Positions 13,187 through 55,895 of a stretch of 64,000 nucleotides of DNA are shown here, piece after piece. Positions within the stretch are counted from its first letter, which is position 1, and each line of letters starts with the position of its first letter. Under the pieces are notes generated by a model, which did not search any database, was not told the DNA's origin, and saw only the letters and a program-made list of their open reading frames with translations. This DNA comes from Escherichia coli (GTDB taxonomy: Bacteria; Pseudomonadota; Gammaproteobacteria; Enterobacterales; Enterobacteriaceae): NCBI RefSeq assembly GCF_003334305.1, contig NZ_QOWS01000023.1. The stretch is one strand, 5' to 3'. The position numbers and the translations under genes are program-made.

Positions 13187-15429
<2,243 letters not shown>

Positions 15430-51289: not shown

Positions 51290-52537
51290 ATGACGGAACA
51301 AGAAAAAACCTCCGCCGTGGTTGAAGAGACCAGGGAGGCCGTGGACACCACGTCACAACCTGTCGCAACAGAAAAAAAGAGTAAGAACAATACCGCATTG
51401 ATTCTCAGCGCGGTGGCTATCGCTATTGCTCTGGCGGCGGGCGTCGGTTTGTATGGCTGGGGTAAACAACAGGCCGTCAATCAGACCGCCACCAGCGATG
51501 CCCTGGCTAACCAACTGACGGCATTGCAAAAAGCCCAGGAGAGCCAAAAAGCCGAGCTGGAAGGCATTATTAAGCAACAAGCTGCACAGCTTAAGCAGGC
51601 GAATCGTCAGCAAGAAACGCTGGCAAAACAGTTGGATGAAGTCCAACAAAAGGTCGCCACCATTTCCGGCAGCGATGCTAAAACCTGGCTGCTGGCTCAG
51701 GCCGATTTTCTGGTGAAACTCGCCGGACGGAAGCTGTGGAGCGATCAGGACGTCACGACCGCTGCAGCGTTGCTGAAAAGTGCAGATGCCAGCCTGGCGG
51801 ATATGAATGACCCGAGTCTGATTACCGTTCGTCGGGCAATTACCGATGATATCGCCAGCCTTTCTGCAGTTTCGCAGGTGGATTATGACGGCATCATCCT
51901 TAAGCTTAATCAGCTTTCAAATCAGGTAGATAACCTGCGTCTGGCCGATAATGACAGCGATGGTTCGCCGATGGATTCCGACGGTGAAGAGCTTTCCAGT
52001 TCCATCAGCGAATGGCGTATCAATCTGCAAAAAAGCTGGCAGAACTTTATGGACAACTTCATTACGATTCGCCGTCGTGATGACACCGCCGTACCGCTGT
52101 TAGCGCCAAATCAGGATATCTATCTGCGCGAAAATATTCGCTCTCGCCTGCTGGTCGCAGCACAAGCTGTACCGCGTCACCAGCAAGAGACTTATCGCCA
52201 GGCGCTGGAGAACGTCTCCACCTGGGTACGTGCTTACTACGATACTGATGATGCCACCACCAAAGCGTTCCTCGACGAGGTAGACCAGTTAAGCCAGCAA
52301 AATATCTCGATGGATCTTCCGGAAACCCTGCAAAGCCAGGCGATGCTGGAAAAACTGATGCAGACTCGCGTGCGTAACCTGCTGGCACAACCGGCAGCGG
52401 GGACAACGGAAGCTAAACCTGCACCTGCACCTGCACCTGCACCTGCACCTGCACCTGCACCTGCACCTGCACCTGCACCTGCACCTGCACCTGCACCGCA
52501 AGGTGATACTCCGGCAGCCGCGCCGCAAGGAGAATAA
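51290..52537 (+). CDS. hemX: HemX (415 aa here) with a C-terminal (Pro-Ala)13 tract
   Basis: Full-length ORF in the hemCDXY operon; I recall ~393 aa in K-12, so the tract appears expanded. Confidence 0.92.
52418..52495 (+). repeat. Perfect hexanucleotide tandem repeat (CCTGCA)x13 inside hemX, in frame
   Basis: Direct reading of the sequence; 78 bp, no interruptions. Confidence 0.95.
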
Positions 52538-52539
52538 CC

Positions 52540-53736
52540 ATGCTAAAAGTGTTATTACTCTTTGTTTTGCTGATTGCGGGGATAGTGGTTGGCCCGATGA
52601 TTGCCGGTCATCAGGGTTACGTGCTGATCCAGACTGACAACTACAATATCGAAACCAGCGTCACGGGCCTGGCGATTATTTTGATTCTGGCGATGGTAGT
52701 GCTGTTTGCCATTGAGTGGCTACTGCGGCGGATCTTCCGCACAGGCGCACACACCCGTGGGTGGTTTGTCGGACGTAAGCGTCGCCGTGCCCGTAAGCAG
52801 ACCGAACAGGCGCTGCTGAAACTGGCGGAAGGCGATTATCAGCAAGTTGAAAAGCTGATGGCGAAAAATGCCGATCACGCGGAACAACCGGTGGTGAACT
52901 ATCTACTGGCTGCCGAAGCCGCGCAACAACGTGGTGATGAAGCACGCGCCAACCAACATCTGGAACGCGCAGCAGAGCTGGCCGGCAATGACACCATTCC
53001 GGTAGAAATCACCCGTGTACGTCTGCAACTGGCCCGTAATGAAAACCATGCTGCACGCCACGGCGTGGATAAGCTGCTGGAAGTTACGCCACGCCATCCG
53101 GAAGTATTACGTCTGGCGGAACAGGCGTATATCCGCACAGGTGCATGGAGTTCTCTGCTGGATATCATCCCATCAATGGCGAAAGCCCATGTTGGTGATG
53201 AAGAACATCGTGCAATGCTGGAACAACAGGCATGGATTGGCCTGATGGATCAGGCGCGTGCCGATAACGGTAGTGAAGGTTTGCGTAACTGGTGGAAAAA
53301 CCAAAGCCGGAAAACGCGTCATCAGGTAGCGTTGCAGGTGGCAATGGCGGAACATCTTATTGAATGTGACGATCATGATACTGCCCAGCAAATTATCATC
53401 GATGGCCTGAAACGCCAGTACGACGATCGCCTACTGCTGCCGATTCCTCGACTGAAAACCAACAATCCGGAACAGCTGGAAAAAGTGCTGCGCCAGCAGA
53501 TCAAAAACGTCGGCGATCGCCCGCTGTTGTGGAGCACACTGGGCCAGTCACTGATGAAGCACGGAGAATGGCAGGAAGCATCGCTCGCCTTCCGCGCGGC
53601 GCTGAAACAACGTCCGGACGCCTACGATTACGCATGGCTTGCCGACGCGCTGGACAGACTGCACAAGCCGGAAGAAGCTGCAGCGATGCGTCGCGACGGT
53701 TTGATGTTAACGTTGCAGAACAACCCACCACAGTAG
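52540..53736 (+). CDS. hemY: HemY, 398 aa (TPR-like inner membrane protein)
   Basis: Full-length ORF 2 bp after hemX. Confidence 0.93.
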   Translation: MLKVLLLFVLLIAGIVVGPMIAGHQGYVLIQTDNYNIETSVTGLAIILILAMVVLFAIEWLLRRIFRTGAHTRGWFVGRKRRRARKQTEQALLKLAEGDYQQVEKLMAKNADHAEQPVVNYLLAAEAAQQRGDEARANQHLERAAELAGNDTIPVEITRVRLQLARNENHAARHGVDKLLEVTPRHPEVLRLAEQAYIRTGAWSSLLDIIPSMAKAHVGDEEHRAMLEQQAWIGLMDQARADNGSEGLRNWWKNQSRKTRHQVALQVAMAEHLIECDDHDTAQQIIIDGLKRQYDDRLLLPIPRLKTNNPEQLEKVLRQQIKNVGDRPLLWSTLGQSLMKHGEWQEASLAFRAALKQRPDAYDYAWLADALDRLHKPEEAAAMRRDGLMLTLQNNPPQ

Positions 53737-53783: not shown

Positions 53784-53990
53784 AAAAAAACGCCTGCTCT
53801 TATTACGGAGCAGGCGTTAAAACAGGTCTGTATGACAACAAGTGGGTGCTTCACTCAACGTTGTGTCCATGGTGTCTGATGAGGCATAAGCGACATCTGT
53901 CAGTGGACGATAAGCACCGTAAACGGCTCTGCGTCATTCCGGAGTTTATGAGGCACTAAGGCGAACATAAGAGATGGAATGAGCATCTAC
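53784..53990 (-). ncRNA. glmZ: GlmZ small regulatory RNA (~207 nt)
   Basis: Lies in the hemY-aslA intergenic region where glmZ is located in K-12; minus strand begins GTAGATGCTCATTCCATCTC and ends with a GC-rich hairpin plus U7; an extended -10 (TGgCATAAT) precedes the 5' end. Confidence 0.8.
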
Positions 53991-53996
53991 CCGTTT

Positions 53997-54005
53997 ATTA
54001 TGCCA
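53997..54005 (-). promoter_or_regulatory. Extended -10 promoter element (TGgCATAAT) for glmZ
   Basis: Hexamer CATAAT at -12 to -7 with TG at -15/-14 relative to the inferred 5' end at 53990. Confidence 0.55.
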
Positions 54006-54414
54006 CAGAGAATCGGGAAATAACATCCCTTAACACTTGTTATGAGATAATTCTGTAATCCTCTTTGCTTCCTGAGTAATAACTTCCTGAGTGAATATTT
54101 AACCTGAGCTTGATCCTACACATACTTATTATGAATGATAAAATTCATTCAATTAATAACACATATATTAATTGCCGTTAAAACTAAAAAAAGCATCAAT
54201 AATCAACGCGATATAATAAACCTGCCTTACATATCAACTGCGCCAGAGGTAGGATTGAAAACGCTCTCCTGATTTTCCAATTCATTTTCTGGATAAATAA
54301 ATAATTTATTTTTGTCACTATTATTTATGTAATCATCCTGTCAGGGAGAGGGATCTCAATTATCAATGCTTAATTACGTCATCATTTTGATGACATGAAA
54401 CCGGAGCATTTTGC

Positions 54415-54576
54415 ATGGAATTTTCGTTTTCACCCAAACTTCTTGTTGTTGCTGTCGCCGCCGCTCTTCCTCTCATGGCCAGCGCAGCAGATACCCCGTC
54501 AACTGCCACCGCACGCAAAGGCTTTGCCGGATACGATCACCCAAACCAGTATCCACAGAACGCTGCAATTTATTGA
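54415..54576 (+). pseudogene. aslA: aslA (arylsulfatase) remnant: 53-codon ORF with signal peptide only
   Basis: [29 protein letters not shown]... stops after 53 codons; only 83 bp separate its stop from the convergent aslB 3' end, whereas K-12 aslA is ~551 aa (from memory). Confidence 0.65.
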
Positions 54577-54659: not shown

Positions 54660-55895
54660 TTACTTATTCACCACCAGCAAATGTGCCTGCATAATGTCAC
54701 TGGCCGGGCGACCGTGCGCCAGCAAATCAGCCATTGCTTTAAGATATGGCGGTAGATGGCGGAAATAACGCTGATACCCGGCACACAAATAATTCAGCCC
54801 CGGTTTGCCGCTGGCATCGAGCATGAAGCGGTGTTTCGGGCAGCCTCCCCAGCACGCTTTTAACACGTTACAACTGCGACACTGCGCCGGTAATTGCTTA
54901 AATTTATCTTCACCAAACACCTGCTGTTGCGGGGAATCGATCATTTCTGCAATTGTTTGCTGATGCATATTCCCCAGCCGATATTGCGGATAAACATAGT
55001 GATCGCAGGCGTAAACGTCGCCGTTGTGCTCAACAATCACCGAGCGCCCACAGGTTGGCTGATGATGGCAAACCGCACCCGGCGCACCGACAAAATTGGC
55101 AAACGCCCATTCGATATTCATCACGAAAATCTTGCCGACGTCGCGTTTGATCCAGTGGTCGAATATCGCCACCAGAAATTCACCAAATTCATCGGGGCGC
55201 ACCGACCATTCCTTCAGTTCCCCCTGAATATCACCAGGCGCATGTAGTTTCAGTCCATCGCTGGCAGCTGTTTCATCAGCCAGGCGCTCGACCACCGGAA
55301 TAAACTGGATGAATTCGACTCCCGCATCGCACAAAAAATCATAAACCTGCAACGGTTGCTGCGCGCTGGTGCGGTTGACGCAGACCAGCACGTTATAGTC
55401 GACATGATGTTTTTGCAGCAGCGTCAGGGCACGCATCACCAGCTTATGCGTTGGTCTGCCACCTTTGGTCACGCGATATTGATTGTGGATCTCAGCCGGA
55501 CCGTCCAGCGATAACCCAACAAGAAAATGATTTTCTGCCAGAAATGCACACCATTTATCATCGAGCAGCACGCCGTTAGTCTGGAAGCTGTTACTTATCT
55601 TCCTGCCAGCACCGTATTTCGCCTGTAACTTTACGGCACGGCGGTAAAAATCCAGCCCGAGTAACGTTGGTTCGCCGCCCTGCCAGGTAAAAGCCACTTC
55701 GTTTTGCGGTTCGCTGGCAGCGATATAGTGACGGACATACGCTTCCAGCGTGTCATCGTCCATATGCGTGACTGGCTTTTCGCGGTAAAGGGATTGTTTT
55801 TCGAGATAAAAACAGTAGTCACAGTTCAGATTACAATCGGAACCACTCGGTTTCGCCATCACATGAAAAGCACGCGTTGGAACCTGTTGCAGCAT
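54660..55895 (-). CDS. aslB: Anaerobic sulfatase-maturating enzyme homologue (radical SAM), 411 aa
   Basis: ORF track 54660-55925; start at 55895 (MLQQVPTRAFHVMAKPSG...); CxxxCxxC radical-SAM motif CNLNCDYC. Confidence 0.9.
   Translation of the reverse strand: MLQQVPTRAFHVMAKPSGSDCNLNCDYCFYLEKQSLYREKPVTHMDDDTLEAYVRHYIAASEPQNEVAFTWQGGEPTLLGLDFYRRAVKLQAKYGAGRKISNSFQTNGVLLDDKWCAFLAENHFLVGLSLDGPAEIHNQYRVTKGGRPTHKLVMRALTLLQKHHVDYNVLVCVNRTSAQQPLQVYDFLCDAGVEFIQFIPVVERLADETAASDGLKLHAPGDIQGELKEWSVRPDEFGEFLVAIFDHWIKRDVGKIFVMNIEWAFANFVGAPGAVCHHQPTCGRSVIVEHNGDVYACDHYVYPQYRLGNMHQQTIAEMIDSPQQQVFGEDKFKQLPAQCRSCNVLKACWGGCPKHRFMLDASGKPGLNYLCAGYQRYFRHLPPYLKAMADLLAHGRPASDIMQAHLLVVNK

What the first reader, a model, noticed from the sequence alone, without database searches (positions are those of the whole stretch)
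53784..54100. GlmZ sRNA locus retained beside the deleted aslA, with a tandem 10-mer direct repeat upstream
A 207-nt minus-strand RNA with an extended -10 promoter and an intrinsic terminator fits GlmZ, the sRNA that activates glmS, convergent with hemY. About 78-102 bp upstream of its inferred start are two exact copies of CTTCCTGAGT spaced 15 bp apart (54068-54077 and 54083-54092), which could be an activator or nucleoid-protein binding site shared with the divergent aslA promoter. The aslA deletion has left this regulatory region intact.
Basis: partly seen in the sequence, partly recalled or inferred. Interest (0 to 1): 0.35.

Follow-up and report, generated by a model that had tools for sequence, protein, structure and literature searches.

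The report
Known GlmZ sRNA gene, incidental repeat
This is the ordinary, well-studied E. coli glmZ small-RNA gene, identical to that of K-12; the small 10-base repeat upstream is real but sits in DNA already shown to be unnecessary for glmZ transcription, so the finding is ordinary.

Summary
Rfam places GlmZ (RF00083, 218 bits, full length) at 53990..53784 on the minus strand. The RNA is 100% identical to K-12 GlmZ. It has an extended -10 promoter and an intrinsic terminator, and it is convergent with hemY. CTTCCTGAGT occurs exactly at 54068-54077 and 54083-54092. aslA is cut down to codons 1-46.

None of this is new. The same repeat is in K-12 and in about 96% of 5,426 complete E. coli genomes. 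The same aslA deletion junction is in 32% of them.

The proposed activator role for the repeat is not supported:
- Göpel et al. 2011 showed that everything upstream of -40 is dispensable for the constitutive sigma-70 glmZ promoter.
- A whole lineage (about 175 genomes, including SMS-3-5 and ST648) carries only one copy.
- One genome has IS1 between the repeat and the promoter.
- In four other Escherichia species the same-length sequence is not a repeat.

The repeat is most likely a neutral, E. coli-specific templated conversion in an AT-rich spacer that one published table flags as H-NS-bound. A role at aslA or under untested conditions is not excluded. Interest is low.

The parts
53784..53990 (-). 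glmZ (sraJ/ryiA) small RNA gene, 207 nt, +1 at 53990
   Evidence: Rfam RF00083, 218.4 bits, full model. 100% identical over 207 nt to a K-12-like genome. The RNA folds at z = -3.3 against shuffles.
53789..53818 (-). GlmZ intrinsic terminator: 11-bp G+C-rich stem, 8-nt loop, then U-run to 53784
   Evidence: I3; last helix of the covariance model
53997..54005 (-). glmZ -10 region: CATAAT (53997-54002) with TG at -15/-14 (54004-54005), an extended -10
   Evidence: Read from the sequence. Göpel et al. 2011 showed by mutating it in K-12 that the -10 is required. The sequence is identical here.
54021..54026 (-). glmZ weak -35 element ATGTTA (3 of 6 matches, 18-bp spacer)
   Evidence: Read from the sequence. 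This fits Göpel's description of a -35 with three consensus bases whose mutation drastically lowers expression. The assignment of this exact hexamer is my inference.
54018..54065 (.). Block at -75..-28 of glmZ, conserved across Escherichia species (40-41 of 48 identical). It holds the -35 and, on the + strand, a possible divergent extended -10 (TGAGATAAT, 54043-54051).
   Evidence: The divergent-promoter reading is inference only. Shimada 2014 predicted an aslA-direction promoter TTAACA-18-TGTAAT in the same block.
54068..54077 (.). Copy of CTTCCTGAGT proximal to glmZ (-78..-87). E. coli-specific: the co-linear sequence in other Escherichia species is GTGTGTGAAG, GCGAACGAAA and similar on the glmZ strand.
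   Evidence: 3-5 of 10 identical to other species
54083..54092 (.). Copy of CTTCCTGAGT distal to glmZ (-93..-102). This is the older unit, partly conserved in other Escherichia species (5-8 of 10).
54068..54097 (.). Period-15 tandem array, 1.9 copies (CTTCCTGAGT-AATAA / CTTCCTGAGTGAATA). One 15-bp unit is deleted in the lineage that includes SMS-3-5 and ST648.
   Evidence: TRF; alignment with L006; 175 genomes carry the single-copy allele
53991..54414 (.). glmZ-aslA spacer, 424 bp, 32.5% G+C, with no GlrR sites and no sigma-54 promoter
   Evidence: Flagged as an RpoD-SELEX peak with H-NS in Shimada 2014. Used as a chromosomal insertion site for reporter cassettes.
54415..54553 (+). aslA remnant (codons 1-46 of 551). 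The deletion junction lies at 54553/54555. The frame runs on to a stop at 54576.
   Evidence: (PGAP pseudogene in an identical genome)
54660..55895 (-). aslB (anaerobic sulfatase maturase), intact, 411 aa
   Evidence: 97% identical to K-12 AslB over 411 aa
52540..53736 (+). hemY, convergent with glmZ

Best explanation
The locus is the canonical E. coli glmZ gene.

From the literature, not tested here: GlmZ is a 207-nt sRNA that base-pairs with the glmS mRNA leader to activate GlcN6P-synthase synthesis. RapZ-directed RNase E cleavage turns it off, and the decoy sRNA GlmY protects it.

Shown for the identical K-12 promoter: it is transcribed from one constitutive sigma-70 promoter, with a weak -35 and an extended -10, that needs nothing upstream of -40. 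This differs from Salmonella, Yersinia, Citrobacter and Enterobacter, where glmZ has a sigma-54 promoter driven by GlrR/QseF bound at TGTCN10GACA sites.

Inferred: the tandem CTTCCTGAGT pair at -78..-102 is not part of this promoter. It is an E. coli-specific perfect direct repeat. It most likely arose when a pre-existing imperfect repeat (ATT-N7-GAAG twice, 15 bp apart) was made perfect by a short templated event, meaning replication misalignment or patch conversion of about 6 nt without a change in length. Being a perfect repeat, it later lost one unit by slippage in one lineage. It sits in an AT-rich spacer, flagged as H-NS-bound in one published table, and has no demonstrated function.

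The aslA deletion next to it is an unrelated, common polymorphism that ends at a REP element.
For: - GlmZ identity: Rfam 218 bits, full length. 100% identity to K-12 GlmZ. The synteny hemCDXY-glmZ-aslA'-aslB-proM-leuT-hisR-argX matches K-12.
- Promoter: the aligned 441 nt covering the spacer differ from a K-12-like genome at 2 positions, neither in the -10, the -35 or the repeat.
- Published tests of that promoter (Göpel et al. 2011): a -40..+32 fusion is as active as longer fragments. Mutating the -35 drastically reduces expression and mutating the -10 abolishes it. GlrR does not bind -424..+32. Deleting glrR or rpoN has no effect.
- No GlrR site (up to 2 mismatches) and no sigma-54 -24/-12 element in the spacer. 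The same scan finds 2-3 sites and TGGCAC-N5-TGTGCA at -27 in Salmonella, Citrobacter and Enterobacter loci.
- Repeat frequency: present in K-12. The 65-nt stretch is covered in 5,243 of 5,426 genomes, and the 33-nt core is exact in 4,967.
- Natural variants: an exact 15-bp single-unit deletion in 175 genomes, including SMS-3-5, ST648 and MS6198. IS1 sits between the promoter and the repeat in L129.
- Origin: E. albertii, E. whittamii and two further Escherichia species are co-linear and of the same length (within 1 nt). They keep the distal unit (5-8 of 10) but have an unrelated proximal unit (3-5 of 10), the least conserved segment of the region.
- Spacer properties: AT-rich and listed with H-NS. 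It also tolerates a 7-bp tandem duplication in ATCC 8739.
Against: - The repeat is nearly fixed and perfectly conserved in E. coli even in the haplotype whose spacer is otherwise about 6% diverged. This could reflect purifying selection rather than youth or hitch-hiking with glmZ.
- Six to seven clustered changes that all create identity with the neighbouring unit could also be read as selection for a second binding site.
- Göpel's truncations were assayed on plasmids under standard growth conditions, so conditional regulation of glmZ is not excluded.
- Nothing here tests a role for the repeat in aslA expression. I found no transcription-start or ChIP data for the spacer.
- The templated-conversion mechanism is inferred from five lineages. 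E. fergusonii, E. marmotae and E. ruysiae were not identified among the loci I obtained.
Confidence: 0.72

Rival explanations
1. The two 10-mers are a functional binding site for a transcription factor or nucleoid protein. The site would act on the divergent aslA promoter, or on glmZ only under conditions not yet tested. It would have been gained in the E. coli lineage and kept by selection.
For: - Both copies are exact in more than 95% of genomes, including the diverged B2/D-type spacer haplotype.
- The region from -105 to -1 shows 2 differences in about 106 nt between the haplotypes, against about 24 in the other 318 nt.
- The clustered substitutions all go toward identity with the neighbouring unit.
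- A third CCTGAG follows 17 bp further on in the K-12-type haplotype.
- The repeat lies 59-83 bp upstream of a promoter-like site on the + strand at 54117-54144.
Against: - The region is dispensable for glmZ promoter activity.
- A successful lineage has one copy.
- The proximal unit is absent in sister species that have intact aslA and the same spacer architecture.
- A spacing of 15 bp, about 1.5 helical turns, is atypical for tandem-dimer regulators, which usually use 10-11 or 21-22 bp (established knowledge).
- No known motif matched in my scans. No bacterial paper appeared among the 15 listed of 226 hits for the sequence.
- The repeat is equally retained in the 32% of genomes that have no aslA.
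Confidence: 0.13
2. The repeat is pure coincidence: two independent 10-mers that happen to match in AT-rich DNA, with no shared origin.
For: Exact repeats of 10 nt or more at offsets 10-30 occur 5 times in this window. 2.4% of simulated spacers contain one.
Against: - The similarity extends to about 15 nt with one indel (TRF, 93% matches).
- Outgroups show the proximal unit differed at 5-7 of 10 positions, and every change in E. coli went to the base of the distal unit. That is very unlikely without a template or selection: (1/3)^6 is about 0.001.
Confidence: 0.07
3. The repeat is transcribed. It would lie at the 5' end of a long aslA leader, starting from a divergent promoter in the conserved block (TGAGATAAT at 54043-54051, or Shimada's TTAACA-18-TGTAAT), and act at the RNA level.
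For: - The block at -75..-28 is conserved across Escherichia beyond what the weak -35 explains.
- It contains an extended -10-like TGAGATAAT on the + strand.
- Shimada 2014 lists an aslA-direction promoter there. Either start would place the repeats within about +1 to +35 of the transcript.
Against: - I found no transcription-start data.
- TGTAAT lacks the critical A at position 2, and the promoter scan did not report either site.
- The proximal copy is not conserved.
- There is no obvious pairing partner or protein motif on the + strand.
Confidence: 0.05

Closest known systems
E. coli K-12 glmZ (b4456; SraJ/RyiA; Rfam RF00083) with its constitutive sigma-70 promoter (Göpel et al. 2011, group III)
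   Same: The RNA is identical over 207 nt. The -10, the -35 and the upstream repeat are identical. The neighbours are the same (hemY convergent, aslA divergent). The terminator is the same.
   Different: The aligned 441 nt covering the spacer carry two SNPs (position -1, and one in a T-run at 54191). aslA is deleted beyond codon 46.
Sigma-54/GlrR(QseF)-dependent glmZ and glmY promoters of Yersinia, Salmonella, Citrobacter and Enterobacter (groups I and II)
   Same: Orthologous sRNA and the same +1. The extended -10 region, TGTGCAATAAT in those species and TGTGGCATAAT here, is homologous.
   Different: There is no TGGCAC-N5-TTGCA element, no TGTCN10GACA enhancer site and no matching IHF site here. 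The 10-mers are direct repeats, not the inverted half-sites of GlrR. Homology with those genera ends at about -16. Upstream of that point the Escherichia sequence is linked to aslAB and AT-rich.
Short tandem duplications and slippage-prone direct repeats in intergenic DNA (VNTR-like copy-number polymorphism)
   Same: Period-15 array of 1.9 copies. One-copy and two-copy alleles exist in the species, with an exact one-unit deletion. Another small tandem duplication occurs in the same spacer in ATCC 8739.
   Different: Outgroups have the same total length, so the second copy was not simply inserted. It replaced pre-existing sequence, by templated conversion or by duplication plus deletion. No alleles with three or more copies were seen: no place fell below 95% identity.
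Direct-repeat operator sites of response regulators (OmpR/PhoB family, LytTR family)
   Same: Two identical units in direct orientation upstream of a promoter.
   Different: The spacing is 15 bp rather than 10-11 or 21-22 bp. There is no match to boxes I know of (recall only). The region is dispensable for the adjacent promoter. It is not conserved in sister species.

Membership tests
GlmZ_SraJ sRNA (Rfam RF00083) | Covariance-model score above the curated gathering threshold over the full model | tested here: met
   218.4 bits against 60, model positions 1-214 of 214, E 3.4e-56
GlmZ_SraJ sRNA (Rfam RF00083) | Orthologous position: downstream of and convergent with hemY in the hemCDXY cluster | tested here: met
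   hemY 52540..53736 (+), glmZ 53990..53784 (-). Same order as MG1655 and as stated by Göpel 2011.
GlmZ_SraJ sRNA (Rfam RF00083) | Sequence identity with the experimentally characterised K-12 GlmZ, including the glmS-pairing and RapZ/RNase E regions | tested here: met
   100% identity over 207 nt to the K-12-like locus L001. Function is inferred from identity and was not assayed.
GlmZ_SraJ sRNA (Rfam RF00083) | Own promoter and Rho-independent terminator | tested here: met
   Extended -10 TGgCATAAT and -35 ATGTTA read from the sequence. Terminator found. Promoter elements validated by mutation in K-12.
Sigma-54/GlrR-dependent glmY/glmZ promoter class | Sigma-54 -24/-12 element (TGGCAC-N5-TTGCW) ending about 12 bp before +1 | tested here: not met
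   No match at the promoter with up to 3 mismatches. Positive controls in Salmonella, Citrobacter and Enterobacter were found at -27.
Sigma-54/GlrR-dependent glmY/glmZ promoter class | Three GlrR/QseF sites TGTCN10GACA upstream | tested here: not met
   0 matches with up to 2 mismatches in 53991-54414, against 2-3 per control locus with up to 1 mismatch. GlrR does not bind the K-12 fragment.
   Not assayed by me. Published 5' truncation of the identical K-12 sequence shows that sequence upstream of -40 is dispensable (PMC3045617). Natural one-copy alleles and an IS1-separated allele exist.
   The proximal unit is 3-5 of 10 identical in four other Escherichia species, while the adjacent block is 40-41 of 48.
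Regulatory site of the aslA promoter | Defined position relative to a mapped aslA transcription start, and an effect on aslA expression | not testable with these tools
   No start-site data were retrievable. There are only consensus-level promoter guesses.
Tandem duplication / slippage repeat | Head-to-tail units with copy-number polymorphism by whole units | tested here: met
   TRF period 15, 1.9 copies. Exact 15-bp deletion allele in 175 genomes.
Tandem duplication / slippage repeat | Origin by insertion of one extra unit relative to the ancestral sequence | tested here: not met
   The outgroup sequences are co-linear and within 1 nt of the same length. The proximal unit replaces older sequence.

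The most novel reading that the evidence does not exclude
The E. coli lineage created, in a single templated step, a second perfect copy of a 10-mer. The pair would now serve as a species-specific binding site for an unidentified regulator of aslA, or for conditional control of glmZ. The one-copy allele of the SMS-3-5/ST648 lineage would be a natural regulatory variant.
Probability: 0.08. Interest if true: 0.3.

Novelty: already known. Interest (0 to 1): 0.08.

Why it matters
It matters little. GlmZ and its E. coli promoter are among the best-characterised sRNA loci. The repeat is present in K-12, and the region was already dissected experimentally without any effect upstream of -40. The aslA deletion is a common polymorphism of a gene that is routinely scored as variably present.

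The only mildly useful by-products are these:
- A clean example of a perfect direct repeat generated without a length change, consistent with templated multi-nucleotide mutation, followed by slippage loss in one lineage.
- The observation that the whole Escherichia genus shares the aslAB-linked, GlrR-free glmZ upstream region.

Tried and rejected
- Relic GlrR/sigma-54 enhancer: rejected. There are no TGTCN10GACA or -24/-12 matches, while the positive controls matched.
These are leads only, not a proper motif-library scan.
- Literature search for the 10-mer itself: 226 papers contain it, and none of the 15 listed was bacterial.
- Literature on aslA regulation: nothing relevant.
- Transcription-start tables in the supplements of Cappable-seq, SMRT-Cappable-seq and Rend-seq papers: no entries for the MG1655 coordinates or gene names, or the files are not held.
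- Simple 15-bp insertion as the origin: rejected, because the outgroups have the same length.
- Three-copy alleles: no sign of them, since no place fell below 95% identity.
- A causal link between the aslA deletion and the repeat: rejected, because K-12 with intact aslA has the same repeat.
E. fergusonii, E. marmotae and E. ruysiae were not obtained under those names.

Full report
**1. The observation**

- cmscan against Rfam 15 reports GlmZ_SraJ (RF00083) at 53990..53784 on the minus strand. The score is 218.4 bits against a gathering score of 60, with E 3.4e-56 and the full model matched, positions 1-214.
- The last helix is an 11-bp G+C-rich hairpin at 53818..53789 followed by a U-run. The terminator scan also picks it up.
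- On the glmZ strand, the sequence before +1 reads ...ATGTTA TTTCCCGATTCTCTG TG G CATAAT AAACGG G(+1). This gives a -10 CATAAT at 53997-54002, a TG at -15/-14 (an extended -10), and a weak -35 at 54021-54026.
- hemY (52540..53736, +) is convergent with glmZ.
- CTTCCTGAGT occurs exactly twice in the window, at 54068-54077 and 54083-54092. These positions are -78..-87 and -93..-102 from +1.
- TRF reports the repeat as a period-15 array of 1.9 copies, 54068-54097, with 93% matches and one indel.

Statistically the repeat is unremarkable for a reader who scanned 64 kb.

- The window holds five distinct exact direct repeats of 10 nt or more at offsets 10-30. About 1.1 are expected from Markov-1 simulations.
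- 2.4% of simulated 424-bp spacers of this composition contain one.

**2. What the locus is**

The window is E. coli.

- The gene order is hemC-hemD-hemX-hemY / glmZ / aslA' / aslB / proM-leuT-hisR-argX / thrP(yifK). This is the K-12 order.
- The GlmZ sequence is 100% identical to that of a K-12-like genome.
- The aligned 441 nt covering the 424-bp glmZ-aslA spacer differ at two positions only: position -1, and one base in a T-run. Neither touches the promoter elements or the repeat.
- K-12 carries the same two 10-mers at the same place. The repeat therefore has nothing to do with the aslA deletion.

**3. The aslA deletion**

- Compared with the K-12-like genome, about 1,579 bp are missing. 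The window keeps aslA codons 1-46 (54415-54553).
- Sequence resumes 62 bp past the aslA stop, at the edge of a REP element.
- PGAP annotates the remnant as a pseudogene in an identical genome.
- aslB is intact: 411 aa, 97% identical to K-12 AslB.
- A 111-nt probe across the junction is fully covered in 1,729 of 5,426 complete E. coli genomes, or 32%.
- aslA is intact (551 aa) next to glmZ in E. albertii, E. whittamii and two further Escherichia species. The deletion is therefore derived.
- aslA appears as a variably present virulence gene in a genomic-epidemiology paper I checked.

**4. How the glmZ promoter works (published, on the identical sequence)**

Göpel et al. 2011 (PMC3045617) reported the following for E. 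coli glmZ.

- GlrR does not bind the -424..+32 fragment.
- Deleting glrR or rpoN has no effect.
- In a series of 5' truncations of the aslA-glmZ spacer, sequence upstream of -40 is dispensable, and truncation to -20 abolishes activity.
- Mutating the -35 drastically lowers expression and mutating the -10 abolishes it.

The 10-mer pair lies at -78..-102, inside the dispensable region.

My own scan agrees with this.

- No TGTCN10GACA site (up to 2 mismatches) and no sigma-54 -24/-12 element exists in 53991-54414.
- The same scan finds 2-3 GlrR sites and TGGCAC-N5-TGTGCA at -27 upstream of glmZ in Salmonella, Citrobacter, Enterobacter and related loci.

**5. Population and comparative evidence on the repeat**

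Within E. coli:

- The 65-nt stretch 54036-54100 is covered in 5,243 of 5,426 genomes and identical in 4,744.
- The 33-nt core is exact in 4,967 genomes.
- Both main spacer haplotypes, which differ by about 6% overall, carry the perfect pair.
- 175 genomes carry an exact 15-bp deletion that leaves one copy. They include SMS-3-5, ST648 strains, MS6198 and CUVET19-1396. I take these from memory to be phylogroup F; this was not checked here.
- One genome has an IS1 inserted between the glmZ promoter and the repeat.
- The spacer also tolerates a 7-bp tandem duplication in ATCC 8739.
- The spacer has been used as a chromosomal insertion site for reporter cassettes.

Across species:

- E. albertii, E. 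whittamii and two other Escherichia genomes labelled E. coli have the same upstream architecture with the same length, within 1 nt.
- The distal unit is recognisable in them, for example GCTCAGGAAACTATT and GCTCAGGTAATTATT (5-8 of 10 identical).
- The sequence co-linear with the proximal unit is GTGTGTGAAG, GCGAACGAAA, GCGAGCGAGA or GCAAGTGCAT. At 3-5 of 10 identical, it is the least conserved segment of the region.
- By contrast, the block at -75..-28 is 40-41 of 48 identical.

**6. Interpretation of the repeat**

- The perfect repeat is specific to E. coli. It arose without a net length change, by replacement of about 6 nt (GYGWRY to ACTCAG) lying between short pre-existing homologies (ATT before, GAAG after).
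- Every change went to the base present 15 bp away. This points to a templated event: replication misalignment or short patch conversion, or, less economically, duplication followed by deletion. Independent point mutations giving this result have a probability of roughly (1/3)^6. This step is inference.
- Once perfect, the repeat became a slippage substrate. That explains the exact one-unit loss in the single-copy lineage.
- The spacer is 30-33% G+C. Shimada et al. 2014 list it as an RpoD-holoenzyme SELEX peak flagged with H-NS. Small indels are common in this type of DNA.
- I therefore regard the repeat as most likely neutral.

**7. What remains open**

- The repeat is strikingly invariant in E. 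coli.
- The promoter-proximal 105 bp are less polymorphic than the rest of the spacer.
- Göpel's assays used plasmids under standard conditions.
- Nothing tests aslA expression.
- The conserved block at -75..-28 contains TGAGATAAT on the aslA strand (54043-54051), an extended -10-like element. Shimada predicted an aslA-direction promoter, TTAACA-18-TGTAAT, in the same block.
- I could not retrieve transcription-start data.

These readings are listed as rivals with low probabilities.

**8. Comparison with known systems, and verdict**

- The RNA is a member of RF00083, and the locus is the K-12 glmZ locus in all tested respects.
- It is not a member of the sigma-54/GlrR-dependent promoter class. 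Both defining features were tested and not met.
- The repeat does not behave like an upstream activator site of glmZ. It is dispensable, not conserved, phased at 15 bp, and a natural one-copy lineage exists.
- It fits a slippage-type tandem repeat in structure and polymorphism, but not in origin.
- The finding is already known biology plus an incidental repeat. Interest is low.

Noticed in passing
window 52417-52497 (+), inside hemX (51290..52537): A perfect hexanucleotide tandem array, (ACCTGC)n of about 13 units, lies in frame inside hemX. HemX is 415 aa here, 393 aa in a K-12-like genome and 405 aa in another strain, so this is a coding VNTR.
   Followed up: partly
window 14824-15075 (-): Rfam hit to 'Erse small RNA' (RF02757), 319.5 bits, full model. 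It is unrelated to the finding.
   Followed up: no
window 54660-55895 (-) and 54415-54553 (+): aslB, the anaerobic sulfatase maturase, is intact (411 aa) although its neighbour and presumed substrate aslA is deleted. The same junction is present in 1,729 of 5,426 complete E. coli genomes, and its right end abuts a REP element. It is unclear why the orphan maturase is retained.
   Followed up: partly
window 54018-54065; loci L010, L114, L031, L039: The block at -75..-28 upstream of glmZ is 83-85% conserved across Escherichia species, while its flanks are about 55-60%. Published work says that sequence upstream of -40 is dispensable. The block contains a palindrome, TAACAAGTGTTA, and on the aslA strand an extended -10-like TGAGATAAT. 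It may hold a divergent promoter.
   Followed up: partly
L129 (NZ_CM194533.1) 1748-2445; also H1 NZ_CP096834.1: IS1 copies are inserted in the glmZ-aslA spacer in individual genomes. In L129 the insertion is at about -68 of glmZ, between the promoter and the repeat, and a second IS1 disrupts aslB.
   Followed up: partly
L005 (E. coli ATCC 8739), corresponding to window ~54361-54372: A 7-bp tandem duplication (ATTGATA) lies in the spacer close to the aslA start codon. It is another small slippage-type indel in this AT-rich region.
   Followed up: no
L009, L030, L047 (Citrobacter), L044, L106 (Raoultella) versus Escherichia loci: In several Citrobacter and Raoultella species a tRNA gene with its terminator lies about 100-130 bp upstream of glmZ. 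From its position I presume it is proM; I did not scan it. aslA was detected next to glmZ only in the Escherichia loci; I checked two non-Escherichia loci for aslA, S. enterica arizonae (L045) and C. koseri (L072). In the loci examined, its presence goes together with loss of the GlrR/sigma-54 upstream region.
   Followed up: partly
L096 (Alkalicoccobacillus porphyridii, 279-nt contig, coverage 1.5) and L125 (Chryseobacterium sp. 18061, 86-kb contig): The GlmZ pattern matched contigs filed under a Bacillales genome and a Flavobacteriales genome. These are most likely enterobacterial contamination or mislabelled assemblies.
   Followed up: no
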